A DNA stretch of 64,000 nucleotides from Candidatus Woesearchaeota archaeon (GTDB lineage Archaea > Nanobdellota > Nanobdellia > Pacearchaeales > GW2011-AR1): NCBI GenBank assembly GCA_964495875.1, contig CAZBWB010000001.1, positions 215,656 to 279,655 of the forward strand, given 5' to 3'. Position numbers and translations under genes: made by a program. Below are positions 41,482-46,228 of this stretch, piece after piece. Positions within the stretch are counted from its first letter, which is position 1, and each line of letters starts with the position of its first letter. The notes beneath the pieces are model-generated. The model was not told the DNA's origin. It was given only the letters and a program-made list of their open reading frames with translations, and ran no database searches.

Positions 41482-41604
41482 CGGGCTCGCGAGGATTCGA
41501 ACCCCGATTAATCGGTTTCTCACAAACTTCGTTCGATATTATTAAACATCGCTTACGAACTCGCTCGCCGAAGCCGATTGTGCTATCCATTACACCACAA
41601 GCCC
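41482..41604 (-). tRNA. tRNA-Arg(TCG) with a 51-nt intron (41517..41567) at 37/38
   Basis: GGGCTTG/CGAGCCC acceptor, ATCGG-CTTCGG|A-CCGAT anticodon arm, CGGGG-TTCGAAT-CCTCG T-arm. Confidence 0.92.
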
Positions 41605-41675
41605 TGAAAAAAAGAAAACTATTCTGTATATAAGCTTAACGAATAATTTTTATATCTTGTTTATTTTATAATTCC

Positions 41676-42515
41676 ATGCCATTAAAAAGACATCATAAAA
41701 TACTTATTGGAAGTTTCAGTTCTCTTGTTTTAATTTTTATGATAATAATAAGCATCTTTGTTTACACGATGTTCATAAAACAAACTGTCGATTATAACAC
41801 CTTAGAAAACAAAATCTCTGAATTAGAGGCAGATACTCAAAGCAAACTAAACGAATTAACAATAAGTCTGCTGGAAACAAGAGAAAGTTTGGAAGAGAGT
41901 CAGGAAGAACTAACGCTTCTTAAGGCATCTGCTGGAGAGGATTTTTCTGGTATAATTGAAGATGCAGTAAAATCTGTCGTGACAATAAGAACAGATGTAA
42001 GCCAGGGAACCGGATTTATATTAACAGATGATGGATATTTAATAACAAATGCACATGTGTTAGTCGGAGCATCCAAGGTTCAGGTCATAACTTATGAACA
42101 GGAAATAATAAATGCACAGCTGACAGGATATGATGGAGAACTGGATTTGGCATTATTAAAAATTCCGGGAACTTATGATTCCATATCCTTAGATGATTCA
42201 GATAATGTTCAGGTTGGAGAAAAAGTTATTGCAATTGGAAATCCTTTGGGACTACAATTTTCTGTTTCACAGGGCATTATTTCTGCAATTCACAGAGAAG
42301 GTCCAAACGGACTGGAAATATATATTCAAACTGATGCAGCACTAAATCCCGGAAATTCAGGGGGTCCGTTAATTAACAAAAAAGGAAAAGTTATCGGAAT
42401 AAATAATTTCAAAGTTGGCGGAGGAGAAAGCCTTGGCTTTGCTCTTGAATCAAATTATATTAAAAGCACAGTAAATGAAATCGCAGTAGAAGAATTAGGA
42501 GAAGAACTCTTATAA
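41676..42515 (+). CDS. membrane-anchored trypsin-like (HtrA-type, no PDZ) serine protease
   Basis: TNAHV, DLALLK and NPGNSGGP catalytic triad motifs. Confidence 0.92.
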   Translation: MPLKRHHKILIGSFSSLVLIFMIIISIFVYTMFIKQTVDYNTLENKISELEADTQSKLNELTISLLETRESLEESQEELTLLKASAGEDFSGIIEDAVKSVVTIRTDVSQGTGFILTDDGYLITNAHVLVGASKVQVITYEQEIINAQLTGYDGELDLALLKIPGTYDSISLDDSDNVQVGEKVIAIGNPLGLQFSVSQGIISAIHREGPNGLEIYIQTDAALNPGNSGGPLINKKGKVIGINNFKVGGGESLGFALESNYIKSTVNEIAVEELGEELL

Positions 42516-42520
42516 TAATT

Positions 42521-42613
42521 ATACGTCTACTTTTTATTATTAAATTATAATTTGTAGACATATATATTCTTTGTACGTCTACAATTAGAAAGATTTATAA
42601 ATAATGTAGACAC
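42521..42613. promoter_or_regulatory. array of four alternating TGTAGAC/GTCTAC sites around the proS TATA box
   Basis: GTCTAC 42525, GTAGAC 42554, GTCTAC 42577, GTAGAC 42606; TTTATAAA at about 42594. Confidence 0.75.
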
Positions 42614-42621
42614 ATAAATGT

Positions 42622-44256
42622 ATGACATATACAGAAATTAAGAAAAAACCAAACAGGAAATACTACTATCGTGTAAAATCAATAAGAAAAGGAAAAAAAG
42701 TAAATAAAAAAAGAATTTATCTTGGAGCAAATCTAAATCAAAAACAACTAAAAGAAAAAGAACAAAAAGCAGATGAAGAACTTCTTGGAATAGAAAAACC
42801 AAAATCTGTTAAAAAAAAGCAATCAAAAGAAGGCATCAGTATTAGTAAGGAAGAAAATTTTTCAGAATGGTATCAGCAATTAATGATTAAATCAGAATTA
42901 GCAGATTATTCTCCTGTATCCGGAGCCATAATTTTGCGTCCGATGTCATATTCCCTTTGGGAAAAAATAAAACAAGCCTGTGACAAGGAGTTTAAAAAAA
43001 TTGGAATTCAGAATTCTTATTTCCCGCTATTTATTCCAGAAAGTTTATTCTCAAAAGAGCAAGAACATGTTGAAGGATTTACTCCAGAAGTTGCATGGGT
43101 AACTCAGGCAGGCAATACAAAGTTAAATGAAAGACTGGCGATAAGACCAACATCAGAAGCAATTATGTATGCATCTTATTCAAAATGGATTCGTTCTTGG
43201 AGGGATTTGCCACTGAAATTAAACCAATGGAACAATGTAGTGAGGTGGGAATTCAAAAATCCTGTCCCATTTTTCAGAACTCGTGAATTTTTGTGGAACG
43301 AAGGACATACGGCATTTGCAACAGAAAAAGAAGCATTAGCAGAAGGACCAAAAATAAGAAAAGCATATGAAAAAGTTGTAGAAGAACTTATGGCTCTTCC
43401 GGGAATATACGGCAGAAAAACACAAAAAGAAAAATTCGCTGGCGCAGTTTTTTCAGAGAAACTTCATTACTACATGCCAAATGGAAGAATAATCGAGGGA
43501 CCGTGCTTTCATCACGACGGGCAAAACTTCGCAAAAGCATATGACATAAAATTTTTGGATAAAGATGAAAAAGAAAACTATGTCTGGCAAAATACTTTTG
43601 CTATATCCACTAGAATGCTCGGAGCATTATTCGCCATACATTCAGATGACAAAGGATTAGTAATCCCCCCAAAAATATCAGAAAACAAAATTGTAATCAT
43701 ACCAATCTTTTTTGATAAGACAAAAGAAAAAGTTTTGAAAACAGCAAAAGAAATCAAAGAACAATTAAAGGATTTAAATCCGATTTTAGATGAAAGAAAA
43801 GATTTTTCACCAGGATGGAAATACAACGAATGGGAATTAAAAGGAATCCCAATAAGAATAGAAATCGGACCGAGAGATTTGGAAAACAAATCAGTGATAG
43901 TTGTCAAAAGAAATACTGGTGAAAAATTAAATATTAAAATAAAAGATTTAGAAATTCAAATTCCAAAACTTCTCGACGATATGCAAAAAGAACTTTTTAA
44001 GAATGCTAAAAAATTATTAAAGCAAAATCAGAAAAAAACAGAAGAGAAAAAAGAGTTAATTCAATTTATAAAACAAAAACAAATGGTTTTGGTTCCTATG
44101 TGCAAGTCAGAAGAATGCGAGGATATTTTAAAATCAGAAACAAGCGGAGCAAAAACATTATTCATCAATCCCAAAAAGGAATCAATAAAAGGCAAGAAAT
44201 GTATAATCTGCAAAAAGCCGGCACATTATTGGATTTATGTTGGCAGGACATACTAA
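42622..44256 (+). CDS. proS: proline--tRNA ligase (archaeal/eukaryal type) with an extra basic N-terminal domain
   Basis: FSEWY, AIRPTSEA, RTREFLWNEGH, HSDDKGLVIPP, WELKGIPIRIE, C-terminal GRTY; about 60 extra N-terminal aa. Confidence 0.95.
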   Translation: MTYTEIKKKPNRKYYYRVKSIRKGKKVNKKRIYLGANLNQKQLKEKEQKADEELLGIEKPKSVKKKQSKEGISISKEENFSEWYQQLMIKSELADYSPVSGAIILRPMSYSLWEKIKQACDKEFKKIGIQNSYFPLFIPESLFSKEQEHVEGFTPEVAWVTQAGNTKLNERLAIRPTSEAIMYASYSKWIRSWRDLPLKLNQWNNVVRWEFKNPVPFFRTREFLWNEGHTAFATEKEALAEGPKIRKAYEKVVEELMALPGIYGRKTQKEKFAGAVFSEKLHYYMPNGRIIEGPCFHHDGQNFAKAYDIKFLDKDEKENYVWQNTFAISTRMLGALFAIHSDDKGLVIPPKISENKIVIIPIFFDKTKEKVLKTAKEIKEQLKDLNPILDERKDFSPGWKYNEWELKGIPIRIEIGPRDLENKSVIVVKRNTGEKLNIKIKDLEIQIPKLLDDMQKELFKNAKKLLKQNQKKTEEKKELIQFIKQKQMVLVPMCKSEECEDILKSETSGAKTLFINPKKESIKGKKCIICKKPAHYWIYVGRTY

Positions 44257-44287
44257 TTACTTTAAATCGAGTTATTGCTAAATTTAA

Positions 44288-44458
44288 TTATTCATTGTTA
44301 ATGCCAATTGAATTAAGTTCATCTTCTAGTCTCAAAGTGATTTCCATAAGCTGACTTAATTCTCTTTCAACAAATTCCTGTTCCATCTTTTCTTTACCCA
44401 TTTTAATAAATTCAGAATCCTTAATCTTAAGCCTAAATTGAATAAGAAGCACCTCAAA
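44288..44458 (-). pseudogene. possible decayed gene fragment
   Basis: Protein-like frame FEVLLIQFRLKIKDSEFIKMGKEKMEQEFVERELSQLMEITLRLEDELNSIGINNE* preceded by in-frame stops, inside the largest gap (44257..44640). Confidence 0.3.
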
Positions 44459-44640
44459 TTAATTCAGACCCGAAAAAGAAGCTGAATTAATGTGAGGGAA
44501 ATTTAATTGAATTGTAGACTAAGCCGCATACATTCCAACATATCGTTCTTAGTCTCTTTTCCATAAAATCCACAAGAAAAATCTATTTTTATACTTTTCT
44601 ATAATCCATTATCTATAAAAAATCTGAAAAAGAAATAAAA

Positions 44641-45132
44641 TTACATTATACCATATCTTTTGAGAACATCTTCACTTACTCTGCATCCACTTCTACAAGT
44701 ATCTTCCCCCTCTGCTCTAAAGTCACATCCAATTGGATAGTTTATATTATATTTATCCCCTTCATCTGGATCTTTTGGTATTTCTTCCCAAGGTATCCCC
44801 AAATAACAACTATTAGAATTTTTTCTGGTTTTAAAAGGATATAAAGCCCATTCATCCATGTTAGGAATAGATTCGTGTAAGGCTGCTTGAATATCTCTTT
44901 CCATTATACCGAATTTGGCATATTTCTTGGCATTTCTATCAAAGCTCACGGTTCTCCCGCCAAATCTTAGACAATCAGTATATCTTACCACAGCCATTTC
45001 AACAGTCTTTTCATCCCTAAATCTTCTTGGATCTTGTTGTGTTAAAACTCTAGCCAACTCAGAAAACTCCATCTCTCCACCATTTTTTAGAACCTGATTT
45101 ATTGTACAAAAAGCATATGTGAATGTTGCCAT
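44641..45132 (-). CDS. hypothetical protein, possible N-terminal wHTH
   Basis: LKNGGEMEFSELARVL helix pattern; Cys-containing C-terminus. Confidence 0.55.
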   Translation of the reverse strand: MATFTYAFCTINQVLKNGGEMEFSELARVLTQQDPRRFRDEKTVEMAVVRYTDCLRFGGRTVSFDRNAKKYAKFGIMERDIQAALHESIPNMDEWALYPFKTRKNSNSCYLGIPWEEIPKDPDEGDKYNINYPIGCDFRAEGEDTCRSGCRVSEDVLKRYGIM

Positions 45133-45172
45133 AATACAAAAGACTTTTTTAGCCTTTTAAAGAAGATTGTTA

Positions 45173-46228
45173 TTAAGTATATCCCTTTTCAATTAAATTC
45201 CCCAGATTTTTTTTGAACTTTTCCAAATCTTCAACTTTTATTTTCGCACCAACAGCATCCTCATGCCCTCCGCCAGTCGCATCATCCAAATCCTTAATGA
45301 CTTCTAATAAATATTTTCTGATATTCTTTCCCCTGCAAGAAATGCTTACTTTATCTCCGCTTATACGCATAACAACGATATATTTATCCGGAAGATAATA
45401 ACTGAGTCTGTTAGATAGCTCTGCACTGATGCTCAAATCACTGGCATATTGAAAAAATAAAATTTTTTCTGGTTTTCTTCCAAGAAGTTCTGCTTTTTCC
45501 ATTAATTTTTTGTATTTTTTCTTAACCTGATTAAATCTATCATGCATGGTTTTATTTTTTGTATTTTCCTCCAAAACCTCATAAGGAGTTTTAACTTTCA
45601 TCAAAAATTTTAACATATTTACAACATTCGTTGTTCTGTCTTTAAGTGCAAAACTAAAAATCATTGCAATTTCTCCAATCTGGGATTTGTAAAAGATATC
45701 AAAAGCCTCATCAGTTTTGAAACCTAAATCAGGGTATTCTTTCAAAAATTCAGAATAAAAATCAGGAACAAATTTATCAGAAATAGAGCCAATAACAGCA
45801 ATCCACAAGTCTTCTTTTTTCTGAGTTATTTTATAACAAAGATATGTAACAGGCTCGTTAGTTTTTGATTTATTCAATAAAGGATTGTAATAATTAACAA
45901 ATTCTGGAATGTTCTTTTTGTCAATTTCATGATGGTCAATCCAGACAACAGGAATATTTATTTGTTTAACTGCTTCAAAAAATTCTTTAGAAACCACAGG
46001 CTTGTCTAAAATAAAAATATAATCTGCATTCAATTCTTTAATTTTTCGAAAATAATCCAAAGATAAATCAGGAAAACTTGTCACAGAAACTCCCTTTCCC
46101 CGTCCGATGTATCTCTGCAATAAAAGAAATGCGCAAAGCCCGTCAGGATCATTATCAAAAAAGAAAACAGGATTCTGTGCTTTCTCGAGATGTGCTTTTA
46201 TTTCTTTAATTTGTTTTTTTGTTAGCAT
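45173..46228 (-). CDS. DHH/DHHA1 family phosphoesterase
   Basis: DNDPDG, ILD, IDHH and GGGHEDAVG. Confidence 0.9.
   Translation of the reverse strand: MLTKKQIKEIKAHLEKAQNPVFFFDNDPDGLCAFLLLQRYIGRGKGVSVTSFPDLSLDYFRKIKELNADYIFILDKPVVSKEFFEAVKQINIPVVWIDHHEIDKKNIPEFVNYYNPLLNKSKTNEPVTYLCYKITQKKEDLWIAVIGSISDKFVPDFYSEFLKEYPDLGFKTDEAFDIFYKSQIGEIAMIFSFALKDRTTNVVNMLKFLMKVKTPYEVLEENTKNKTMHDRFNQVKKKYKKLMEKAELLGRKPEKILFFQYASDLSISAELSNRLSYYLPDKYIVVMRISGDKVSISCRGKNIRKYLLEVIKDLDDATGGGHEDAVGAKIKVEDLEKFKKNLGNLIEKGYT

What the first reader, a model, noticed from the sequence alone, without database searches (positions are those of the whole stretch)
42516..42810. ProRS fused to a putative DNA-binding domain behind a four-site operator array: possible self-regulating synthetase
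ProRS begins with about 60 extra residues (MTYTEIKKKPNRKYYYRVKSIRKGKKVNKKRIYLGANLNQKQLKEKEQKADEELL). This basic beta-strand-plus-helix module resembles, from memory, N-termini of DPANN Fic-family proteins. The 106-bp upstream gap holds four alternating copies of TGTAGAC(R)TA: 42525, 42554, 42577 and 42606. The central pair forms a 13-bp inverted repeat (TTGTAGACATATA-N7-TGTACGTCTACAA) and the sites bracket the TATA box. No other promoter in the window shows such an array. The simplest model is that a promoter-operator-repressor cassette was captured in frame by proS, making an essential aaRS its own transcription factor.
Basis: partly seen in the sequence, partly recalled or inferred. Interest (0 to 1): 0.8.

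Follow-up and report, generated by a model that had tools for sequence, protein, structure and literature searches.

The report
ProRS fused to self-targeting DNA-binding cassette
An essential tRNA-charging enzyme of a tiny DPANN archaeon has picked up a portable unit, made of a promoter, paired binding sites and a small predicted DNA-binding domain, that otherwise heads toxin-type genes, so the enzyme probably switches off its own gene.

Summary
Four exact GTAGACRYAYA sites on alternating strands lie in the 106-bp gap before a 544-aa ProRS. Chance predicts 0.06 in the whole window, and there is no other copy in 64 kb. The ProRS carries a 55-aa N-terminal module plus a disordered linker.

The module is a real, undescribed domain family restricted to DPANN archaea. 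It has three β-strands and a helix (pLDDT 91) and matches nothing in Pfam, NCBIfam or PDB. It always sits at residue 1 of Fic, MNT (of MNT–HepT toxin–antitoxin operons), HepT, helicase-like or ProRS proteins.

In 78 of 80 related loci, paired half-sites flank the BRE/TATA box 10–12 nt before the module's own ATG. Only 9 loose matches occur elsewhere in 427 kb. Half-site sequence tracks a module residue: F27 goes with GTGCCC in 10 of 10 loci, V/I27 in 0 of 70.

Only 4 of the 120 closest ProRS cores are fused. Syntenic unfused orthologues lack both module and sites.

The best explanation is a promoter–operator–DNA-binding cassette captured in frame by proS, giving negative autoregulation. DNA binding and repression are inferred, not shown. 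The conserved unit is the pair flanking the TATA box, not the central 13-bp inverted repeat.

The parts
42520..42530 (-). Half-site 1 (GTAGACGTATA on the - strand); distal arm of the upstream pair
   Evidence: Exact pattern match. Equivalent distal sites occur about 30 nt start-to-start from site 2 in at least 12 of 17 ProRS loci.
42554..42564 (+). Half-site 2 (GTAGACATATA); proximal arm of the upstream pair
   Evidence: The spacer to site 1 is 23 nt, the same geometry as the promoter pair, but the spacer sequence is not conserved between loci.
42572..42582 (-). Half-site 3 (GTAGACGTACA on the - strand); left arm of the promoter-flanking operator, ending 2-3 bp upstream of the BRE
   Evidence: The left arm is present in 78 of 80 related loci.
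42587..42603 (+). Purine-rich BRE-like AGAAAGA plus TATA box TTTATAAATA, the core promoter of the fused gene
   Evidence: Read from the sequence. The same aGAAAGatTTATAAAta lies between the arms in Fic, MNT and ProRS loci. GAAAGATTTATAAAT occurs exactly only once in the window. The TATA centre is about 24 nt before the ATG, which implies a leaderless or near-leaderless transcript (inference from archaeal promoter geometry).
42606..42616 (+). Half-site 4 (GTAGACACATA); right arm of the operator, between the TATA box and the start codon
   Evidence: The hexamer ends 10-12 nt before the ATG in 74 of 79 parsed loci. Its sequence co-varies with module residue 27.
42622..42786 (+). N-terminal module (aa 1-55): β1 2-9, β2 12-23, β3 26-36, helix 40-55; the predicted sequence-specific DNA-binding domain
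   Evidence: pLDDT is 90.8 alone and 84-92 in the full-length model. It is 56-91% identical to modules at the N-terminus of Fic, MNT, HepT and ProRS proteins. Invariant residues use all synonymous codons. There is no Pfam, NCBIfam, PADLOC or PDB match.
42787..42843 (+). Lys/Glu-rich linker (aa 56-74); its last part (KQSKEGISISKEE) matches the native N-terminus of unfused ProRS
   Evidence: pLDDT is below 50 for residues 58-69. Junction comparison with unfused orthologues such as MGKKSQEGLTVKKEENFSEWY.
42844..44256 (+). ProRS core (class II catalytic, anticodon-binding and C-terminal zinc-binding domains), including the stop codon
   Evidence: TIGR00408 at 536.7 bits; PF00587, PF03129 and PF09180. 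It is 80% identical to unfused orthologues. ProRS-DHH-deoxyhypusine synthase synteny is shared with them.

Best explanation
The region 42516-42843 is a portable 5' cassette. It consists of a strong archaeal BRE/TATA promoter, half-sites of consensus tGTAGAC(G/A)TA on both sides of that promoter, and an in-frame 55-aa three-strand-plus-helix domain with a flexible linker.

The cassette normally heads Fic genes and MNT-HepT toxin-antitoxin operons of DPANN archaea. Here it has replaced the native promoter and start codon of the housekeeping proS gene.

The module is inferred to be the sequence-specific DNA-binding domain that recognises these half-sites. ProRS is an obligate class II homodimer (established knowledge), so it would present two tethered modules. 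These would occupy the arms about 29-30 bp apart on either side of the BRE/TATA box. The right arm covers about -17 to -6 relative to the leaderless start, where archaeal repressors block RNA polymerase recruitment. A second pair 52 bp upstream would add cooperativity. The net effect would be negative autoregulation of ProRS synthesis.

Shown: the anatomy, the family, the strict module-site linkage, the co-variation and the cassette capture.
Inferred: DNA binding by the module, the sign of regulation, the position of the transcription start, and use of the dimer.
For: 1. Non-random array. Four exact sites against 0.06 expected, with none elsewhere in 64 kb.

2. Strict linkage across partners and genomes. 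Of 80 DPANN loci with the module, 78 have at least one rc(half)-N17-27-half pair within 135 nt upstream of the module's ATG (100 pairs in total). Only 9 loose matches occur in the rest of 427 kb, and one of those precedes a distant module paralogue. The arms flank a conserved BRE/TATA box, and the right hexamer ends 10-12 nt before the ATG.

3. Protein-DNA co-variation. All 10 modules with F27 have the proximal half-site GTGCCC; none of the 70 with V/I27 do (Fisher p = 6e-13, uncorrected for phylogeny).
  - F27 occurs in both MNT and Fic fusions, and at two places in the module tree.
  - In L061 all four sites switched to GTGCCC.
  - Both arms change together in L050 (GTAGCC), L046 (GTAGTC), L052 and L028 (GTGGAC).

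4. The linkage extends to remote relatives.
  - Distant Fic modules (M.IE.R..G..KYYLAHS.R) have direct repeats TGTAGTCACC flanking their TATA box.
  - Helicase-like and 475-aa partners have GTGGAC/GTGGTC.
  - Another paralogue has CCCCTACA/TGTAGGGG.

5. Capture by proS. Only 4 of the 120 closest ProRS cores are fused.
  - Unfused orthologues at the syntenic locus have a plain TTTAAATA promoter and no sites.
  - A fused orthologue 89% identical keeps three exact hexamer sites plus a degenerate fourth (GTGGGC) in the distal position.

6. Context. All 23 MNT fusions are the first gene of MNT-HepT operons. That is where toxin-antitoxin antitoxins carry their operator-binding domain.

7. Domain behaviour. 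The module is a confident independent fold joined by a disordered linker. It is conserved at the protein level, with all synonymous codons used at invariant residues.

8. Precedent. E. coli AlaRS binds its own promoter and represses it (Putney & Schimmel 1981, as cited in PMC8887476). Group II biotin protein ligases and archaeal RbkR are enzyme-repressor fusions (PMC4016012, PMC5397151).
Against: - No binding or expression data exist.
- Foldseek found no significant match to any DNA-binding fold. The best PDB hit has E = 0.46. An integrase arm-type domain (3jtz) reaches only rank 7, with E about 1 and TM 0.43. BFVD gave only uncharacterised proteins.
- The module and its sites lie within 30 nt of each other and are inherited together, so part of the F27-GTGCCC association could be linkage rather than co-evolution.
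- In F27 MNT loci the two arms differ (GTGGAC and GTGCCC), which a simple homodimer model does not predict.
- The distance between the two pairs is only loosely helically phased: 42-44, 52-57 and 59-69 nt.
- The transcription start is inferred, not mapped.
- Sites flanking the TATA box could in principle recruit TBP/TFB rather than exclude them.
Confidence: 0.68

Rival explanations
1. Same cassette and same DNA-binding module, but binding on both sides of the BRE/TATA box stabilises TBP/TFB on bent DNA. This would give positive autoregulation rather than repression.
For: The left arm sits immediately upstream of the BRE, where archaeal activators bind (general knowledge). The arms are about 30 bp apart around a TBP-bent site.
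Against: The right arm covers about -17 to -6, the region of promoter opening and RNA polymerase contact. The BRE/TATA box is already near-consensus. Toxin-antitoxin operons, which are the module's main home, are classically auto-repressed. Positive feedback on an aaRS or a Fic enzyme has no obvious logic.
Confidence: 0.12
2. The half-sites are bound by a separate trans-acting factor. The N-terminal module does something else, such as protein-protein docking, RNA or tRNA binding, or targeting. The two are linked only because they travel together as one 5' cassette.
For: No known DNA-binding fold was recovered. The module and its sites are physically adjacent, so they are co-inherited.
Against: The F27-GTGCCC co-variation spans two partner classes and two tree positions. 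Site sequence diverges in step with module divergence in remote relatives. One genome holds two specificity classes: JAFCCB01 has L001/L037 with GTAGAC and L064 with GTGCCC, which would need two separate factors. No pairs occur at genes without the module.
Confidence: 0.1
3. The inverted repeats act as an RNA or DNA hairpin, for example a terminator of the upstream protease gene, an attenuator, or a translational operator as in E. coli thrS. They are not double-stranded protein-binding sites.
For: The 110-nt region folds better than shuffles (-22.8 kcal/mol, z = -2.95). The arms show compensatory changes.
Against: The loop of the conserved pair is the BRE/TATA box at a fixed distance from the ATG, so the left arm should not be in the mRNA. 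Distant family members use direct repeats, which cannot pair. The frequent GTGGAC/GTAGAC and GTGGAC/GTGCCC arm combinations give mismatches. Site 2-3 spacing is variable. There is no T-tract and no Rfam match.
Confidence: 0.04
4. The repeats are recombination sites of a mobile 5' cassette. They would explain its spread between genes and have no regulatory role.
For: The cassette is found in front of at least five unrelated gene families. One proS relative has a 91%-identical module on a core that is only 71% identical.
Against: No recombinase is linked to the loci. The sites keep an exact register with the TATA box and the ATG in every lineage. The sites lie upstream of the module rather than at the module-partner junction where exchange would be needed. 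None occur on viral contigs.
Confidence: 0.04

Closest known systems
E. coli alanyl-tRNA synthetase autorepression (Putney & Schimmel 1981; cited in PMC8887476)
   Same: An aaRS binds a specific sequence at its own promoter and represses transcription of its own gene.
   Different: AlaRS is bacterial and has no dedicated appended N-terminal domain of this kind. Here a discrete, portable 55-aa module is shared with unrelated enzymes, the promoter is an archaeal BRE/TATA type, and binding has not been demonstrated.
Group II biotin protein ligase BirA and other enzyme-repressor fusions (PutA; archaeal RbkR, PMC5397151; PMC4016012)
   Same: [quoted passage not shown] As a dimer it binds an inverted-repeat operator.
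   Different: BirA and RbkR use winged-helix domains and regulate biosynthetic or transport genes. Here the domain is a three-strand-plus-helix fold with no detectable relatives. The only detected target is the gene's own promoter, and ligand control is unknown.
Autoregulated toxin-antitoxin operons (type II antitoxins; MNT-HepT type VII)
   Same: A small N-terminal DNA-binding domain sits on the first gene product, and a palindromic operator overlaps the promoter. All 23 MNT fusions here head MNT-HepT operons.
   Different: Known antitoxin DNA-binding domains are RHH, HTH, AbrB or Phd/YefM folds. This module is none of these by sequence search, and here it sits on a housekeeping aaRS with no toxin partner.
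Three-stranded-sheet DNA-binding domains (integrase arm-type / AP2-like)
   Same: The same gross topology: three antiparallel β-strands followed by a helix, rich in Arg, Lys and Tyr on the strands.
   Different: Foldseek gave only a rank-7, E about 1, TM 0.43 match to the HPI integrase arm-type domain, and there is no sequence similarity. Membership is not established.

Membership tests
Prolyl-tRNA synthetase, archaeal/eukaryotic type (TIGR00408 proS_fam_I) | Full-length match above the curated cutoff, with class II core, HGTP anticodon-binding and ProRS C-terminal domains | tested here: met
   536.7 bits against a cutoff of 437, residues 75-544. PF00587, PF03129 and PF09180 are all present.
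Prolyl-tRNA synthetase, archaeal/eukaryotic type (TIGR00408 proS_fam_I) | Orthology with the housekeeping proS gene (shared synteny) | tested here: met
   The ProRS-DHH/DHHA1-deoxyhypusine synthase order is shared with unfused (L092) and fused (L093) relatives. The core is 77-80% identical to unfused ProRS.
DPANN N-terminal 'YYYRVKS' module family (undescribed; defined here) | Module starts at residue 1, with conserved M-x-Y-T-E-I...K-Y-Y-Y-R-V-K-S...K-x-R-x-Y-L-G...A-D-K-x-L | tested here: met
   The window scores E = 1.5e-30 against the family profile. It is 53-69% identical to 11 first hits and 57-91% identical to other ProRS modules.
DPANN N-terminal 'YYYRVKS' module family (undescribed; defined here) | Paired GT(A/G)Gnn half-sites flanking the BRE/TATA box, the proximal one ending 10-12 nt before the module's ATG | tested here: met
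   In the window, sites 3 and 4 have a 23-nt hexamer spacer, and the hexamer ends 10 nt before the ATG. The same holds in 78 of 80 loci.
Sequence-specific DNA-binding transcription factor | Physical, sequence-specific binding of the protein to the sites | not testable with these tools
   Only indirect support: co-variation between residue 27 and the half-site, and site divergence that tracks module divergence.
Integrase arm-type / AP2-like three-strand DNA-binding fold | Significant structural superposition on a solved member | tested here: inconclusive
   The best relevant hit is 3jtz at rank 7, with E about 1 and TM 0.43. No hit has E < 0.4 in PDB. BFVD gave only uncharacterised proteins. 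The domain is only 58 aa, where Foldseek has little power.
Group II BPL (BirA)-type enzyme-repressor | N-terminal winged helix-turn-helix domain | tested here: not met
   The module is all-β plus one helix. The only Pfam hint was HTH_19 at E = 0.12, far below the cutoff.
Group II BPL (BirA)-type enzyme-repressor | Adenylate- or ligand-dependent dimerisation and operator binding | not testable with these tools
   This would need biochemistry with proline, ATP and tRNA-Pro.
Toxin-antitoxin-type autoregulated operon | DNA-binding domain on the antitoxin, operator overlapping the promoter, and an adjacent toxin gene | tested here: not met
   This is met for the MNT-HepT relatives. The window gene has no toxin partner: the protease lies upstream and an unrelated ORF on the opposite strand lies downstream. 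It shares the regulatory cassette, not the toxin-antitoxin organisation.

The most novel reading that the evidence does not exclude
The module defines a new archaeal DNA-binding domain family with a readable recognition code (residue 27 against half-site positions 3-5). All module-bearing proteins of one cell that share a half-site (ProRS, Fic AMPylases, MNT-HepT toxin-antitoxin operons) bind one another's promoters. In that case the level or tRNA/proline-loading state of an essential synthetase would directly set the expression of toxin/defence modules, and vice versa. This would be a translation-status-to-dormancy circuit in genome-reduced DPANN archaea, built from one portable cassette.
Probability: 0.2. 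Interest if true: 0.88.

Novelty: new variant of a known kind. Interest (0 to 1): 0.74.

Why it matters
- Dedicated transcription factors are scarce in DPANN genomes. A previously unannotated DNA-binding domain with its cognate operator would add a regulator family and a readable specificity switch.
- It would be the first archaeal aaRS, and the first with a discrete appended domain, predicted to control its own promoter. The only classical precedent is E. coli AlaRS.
- It shows a concrete route by which a housekeeping gene acquires regulation: in-frame capture of a complete promoter-operator-repressor cassette from toxin-antitoxin/defence genes. Fused and unfused orthologues at the same locus give a natural before-and-after pair.
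- The 55-aa module with its roughly 11-bp site, and its orthogonal variants (GTAGAC, GTGCCC, GTGGTC, GTAGTCACC), is a compact candidate part for archaeal genetic tools.

Tried and rejected
- Known-family searches on the module found nothing. Pfam gave only HTH_19 at E = 0.12. NCBIfam, PADLOC and a PDB sequence profile (best hit centrin, E = 0.06, spurious) gave nothing usable.
- Foldseek against PDB and BFVD gave no significant or informative hit.
- Rfam on 41500-45500 gave no match.
- The RNA hairpin reading was rejected because distant members use direct repeats and the loop is the promoter.
- The central 13-bp inverted repeat was rejected as the functional unit, because site 2-3 spacing ranges from 14 to 35 nt between loci.
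- Helical phasing of the two pairs showed only loose clustering and is not claimed.
- An IMG/VR scan for the module found none, so there is no evidence of a viral vehicle.
- Stand-alone module proteins: the short hits of 69-117 aa are contig-end fragments of Fic or ProRS fusions.
- Six literature searches found no description of this module or of a fused DPANN ProRS.
- One contig look-up (P0140) was not on record.
- The sigma-70 promoter and terminator scanner was not used, because the organism is archaeal.
Full report
**1. The observation**

The 106-bp gap between a trypsin-like protease gene (41676-42515, PF13365) and the ORF 42622-44256 holds four exact matches to GTAGACRYAYA.

- They lie on alternating strands at 42520-30 (-), 42554-64 (+), 42572-82 (-) and 42606-16 (+).
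- Dinucleotide-preserving shuffles of the window give 0.06 such matches, and none of 100 shuffles gave four.
- Allowing one mismatch finds nothing else in 64 kb.
- Four of the seven GTAGAC hexamers in the window lie here.
- Same-strand copies are 52 nt apart. The array is therefore two copies of [site(-) - 23 nt - site(+)].
- The spacer of the proximal copy is AATTAGAAAGATTTATAAATAAT, a purine-rich BRE-like element plus a TATA box about 24 nt before the ATG.

The ORF is a bona fide family I ProRS.

- TIGR00408 scores 536.7 bits against a cutoff of 437 and aligns to residues 75-544. All three Pfam domains are present.
- An in-frame TAG at 42607 bounds the ORF upstream.
- The next in-frame start codon is codon 88, beyond the conserved NFSEWY. 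The extension must therefore be translated.

**2. What the extension is**

- Residues 1-55 match no Pfam, NCBIfam, PADLOC or PDB sequence.
- They do find a tight family. Eleven word-indexed hits are 56-70% identical.
- Only 163 representative clusters with E < 1e-3 exist among 1.84 billion proteins.
- 164 loci were found among 185,579 species-representative genomes. Of the 80 retrieved, almost all are MAGs labelled Woesearchaeota, Pacearchaeota or Nanoarchaeota.
- The module always begins at residue 1.
- Its partners are Fic (39 loci, about 299 aa, all 38 complete ones with an intact HxFx[DE]GNGRxxR motif), MNT-type nucleotidyltransferase (23 loci, about 152 aa) and class II aaRS (17 loci, about 540-570 aa).
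- In the representative library the partners also include HepT, a helicase-C protein and a 475-aa protein of unknown function.
- All ten aaRS partners tested are ProRS family I.
- Every MNT fusion is followed, with a 4-nt overlap, by a HepT/HEPN gene of about 115 aa. These are MNT-HepT toxin-antitoxin operons.

Structure and selection:

- AlphaFold2 predicts β1 2-9, β2 12-23, β3 26-36 and helix 40-55 with pLDDT 90.8.
- In the full-length model the module keeps this fold and is joined to the core by a disordered linker, with pLDDT below 50 at residues 58-69.
- Invariant residues R17, S20, L34 and G35 use all their synonymous codons across loci. Conservation is therefore at the protein level.
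- Foldseek found no significant structural neighbour. An integrase arm-type domain appears only at rank 7 with E about 1.

**3. The sites belong to the module**

In the 130 nt before the module's ATG, nearly every locus reads ttaCGTCTACa - (8-10 nt) - aGAAAGatTTATAAAta - n - tGTAGACGTAta - (about 6 nt) - ATG, whatever the fusion partner.

- A loose pattern (rc-half N17-27 half, where half = GT[AG][GC][ACT]C) hits within 135 nt upstream of the module ATG in 78 of 80 loci, giving 100 pairs.
- The same pattern hits only 9 times in the remaining sequence of 427 kb. One of those nine precedes a distant module paralogue.
- The hexamer spacer is class-specific: 24 nt in 38 of 39 Fic loci, 22-25 nt in ProRS loci, and mostly 19-22 nt in MNT loci.
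- The proximal hexamer ends 10-12 nt before the ATG in 74 of 79 parsed loci.
- ProRS loci characteristically have a second pair upstream. The four-site -+-+ array occurs in at least 12 of 17 ProRS loci, against 6 Fic loci and 1 MNT locus.
- In that second pair the roughly 30-nt start-to-start geometry is kept, but the spacer sequence is not conserved.

**4. Co-variation**

- All ten modules with Phe at position 27 have the proximal half-site GTGCCC. None of the 70 with Val or Ile do (Fisher p = 6e-13, not corrected for relatedness).
- F27 occurs in MNT and in Fic fusions and at two separate places in a weakly resolved module tree.
- In the Fic locus L061 all four sites are GTGCCC.
- Both arms change together in L050 (GTAGCC), L046 (GTAGTC), and L052 and L028 (GTGGAC).
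- One MAG (JAFCCB01) carries GTAGAC/V27 genes (L001, L037) alongside a GTGCCC/F27 gene (L064).

More distant relatives keep the arrangement with their own sites:

- Fic proteins with M.IE.R..G..KYYLAHS.R modules have direct repeats TGTAG(T/G)CACC on either side of their TATA box.
- The helicase-like and 475-aa partners have GTGGAC/GTGGTC.
- Another paralogue has CCCCTACA/TGTAGGGG.
- The direct repeats exclude a hairpin as the general explanation.

**5. Capture by proS**

- Among the 120 closest ProRS cores (67-100% identity), only four, including the window's own, carry the module. The rest are 475-502 aa and start MxKKSQEG.T.KKEENFSEWY.
- The window protein keeps the equivalent KQSKEGISISKEENFSEWY after its linker. 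The cassette was therefore added at the native start codon.
- Unfused orthologues (L090-L092, 77-78% identical) have a plain TTTAAATA promoter and no GTAGAC or GTCTAC.
- The fused orthologue L093 (89% identical) keeps three exact hexamer sites plus a degenerate fourth (GTGGGC) in the distal position.
- The ProRS-DHH/DHHA1-deoxyhypusine synthase order is shared by the window, L092 and L093. This is the housekeeping gene at its usual locus.
- Module identity stays at 57-77% across fused ProRS genes whose cores are only 35-68% identical.
- One relative (P0239) has a 91%-identical module on a 71%-identical core. This hints at exchange of the cassette between proS genes.

**6. Mechanism**

*Shown:* a conserved unit of promoter, flanking half-sites and in-frame small domain; its strict linkage; the co-variation; and its capture by proS.

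*Inferred:*

- The module is the DNA-binding domain for these half-sites.
- The ProRS homodimer (class II aaRSs are dimers, by established knowledge) presents two flexibly tethered modules to arms about 29-30 bp apart on either side of the BRE/TATA box.
- The right arm lies at about -17 to -6 of a leaderless start. Occupancy would therefore block polymerase recruitment, as for characterised archaeal repressors, and give negative autoregulation.
- The upstream pair adds cooperativity.

I put 0.68 on this model. I put about 0.12 on the same binding acting positively.

*Rivals:*

- A separate factor binds the sites (0.10). This is disfavoured by the co-variation and by two specificity classes in one genome.
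- An RNA/DNA hairpin (0.04). The fold z-score is -2.95, but distant members use direct repeats, the loop is the promoter, the arms mismatch, and Rfam has no match.
- Recombination sites (0.04). No recombinase is linked, the register with the TATA box is fixed, and no viral copies exist.

**7. Comparison with known systems**

- The nearest functional precedent is E. coli AlaRS, which binds and represses its own promoter (Putney & Schimmel 1981, cited in PMC8887476).
- This case differs in four ways: the fold (not wHTH or RHH), the portability of the whole cassette across at least five enzyme families, an archaeal BRE/TATA-flanking operator, and an aaRS as the host.
- Six literature searches found no description of the module or of fused DPANN ProRS.

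**8. Verdict**

- Two corrections apply: the functional unit is the TATA-flanking pair, and no known fold could be assigned.
- I class it as a new variant of a known kind (an enzyme-repressor, autoregulated cassette), resting on an apparently undescribed domain family.
- Interest is 0.74. Biochemical proof of binding is the missing step.

Noticed in passing
L016, L018, L021, L028, L079, L001 (related loci); L001 and L037 lie in the same MAG, JAFCCB01: A second, divergent ProRS class also carries the module. Its members score 415-485 bits on TIGR00408, one of them below the cutoff, and their cores are 35-38% identical to the window core. One MAG has a divergent copy and a canonical fused copy together. 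That MAG is labelled Dojkabacteria (CPR bacterium), but these contigs look DPANN.
   Followed up: partly
L090:1380-1500, L092:1182-1500: Unfused ProRS orthologues have what looks like a tRNA gene on the opposite strand directly upstream of their plain promoter. It was read by eye from the sequence (ggcctggagggaatcgaacc...) and not confirmed with ARAGORN. The fused versions have lost this neighbour.
   Followed up: no
L001:2870-3000, L006:2880-3000, L019:2900-3000: Three ProRS loci have 65-115 nt between the operator/promoter and the ATG instead of about 10 nt. The L001 leader contains a 12-codon ORF, MTKLKEDTSKKP*, that looks like a decayed duplicate of the module start.
   Followed up: no
All 23 MNT-fusion loci, e.g. 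L015:1118-1450, L024:3459-3830: Each module-MNT gene overlaps by 4 nt (ATGA) a HepT/HEPN gene of about 115 aa with the RxxxxH motif. These are complete MNT-HepT toxin-antitoxin operons. In the F27 subclass the left and right operator arms differ (GTGGAC against GTGCCC).
   Followed up: partly
L081, L083, L086, L088 (distant Fic relatives): A wider superfamily of Fic N-terminal modules (M.IE.R..G..KYYLAHS.R.G.KV.K.R.YLG) uses direct rather than inverted repeats (TGTAGTCACC) on either side of the TATA box.
   Followed up: partly
window 44641-45132 (-): A 163-aa ORF lies between proS and the DHH/DHHA1 gene and has no Pfam match. Relatives have only a 39-47 aa ORF at this position.
   Followed up: no
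P0073 (426 aa, representative library): A radical-SAM ORF runs straight into a module-MNT gene, with the module at residues 337-381. This is probably a frameshift, a lost stop codon or an assembly artefact rather than a true internal module.
   Followed up: no
window 42607-42609: The TAG inside half-site 4 (tGTAGAC) is in frame with proS and acts as the upstream ORF boundary. The same hexamer therefore prevents any N-terminal read-through in most loci.
   Followed up: no
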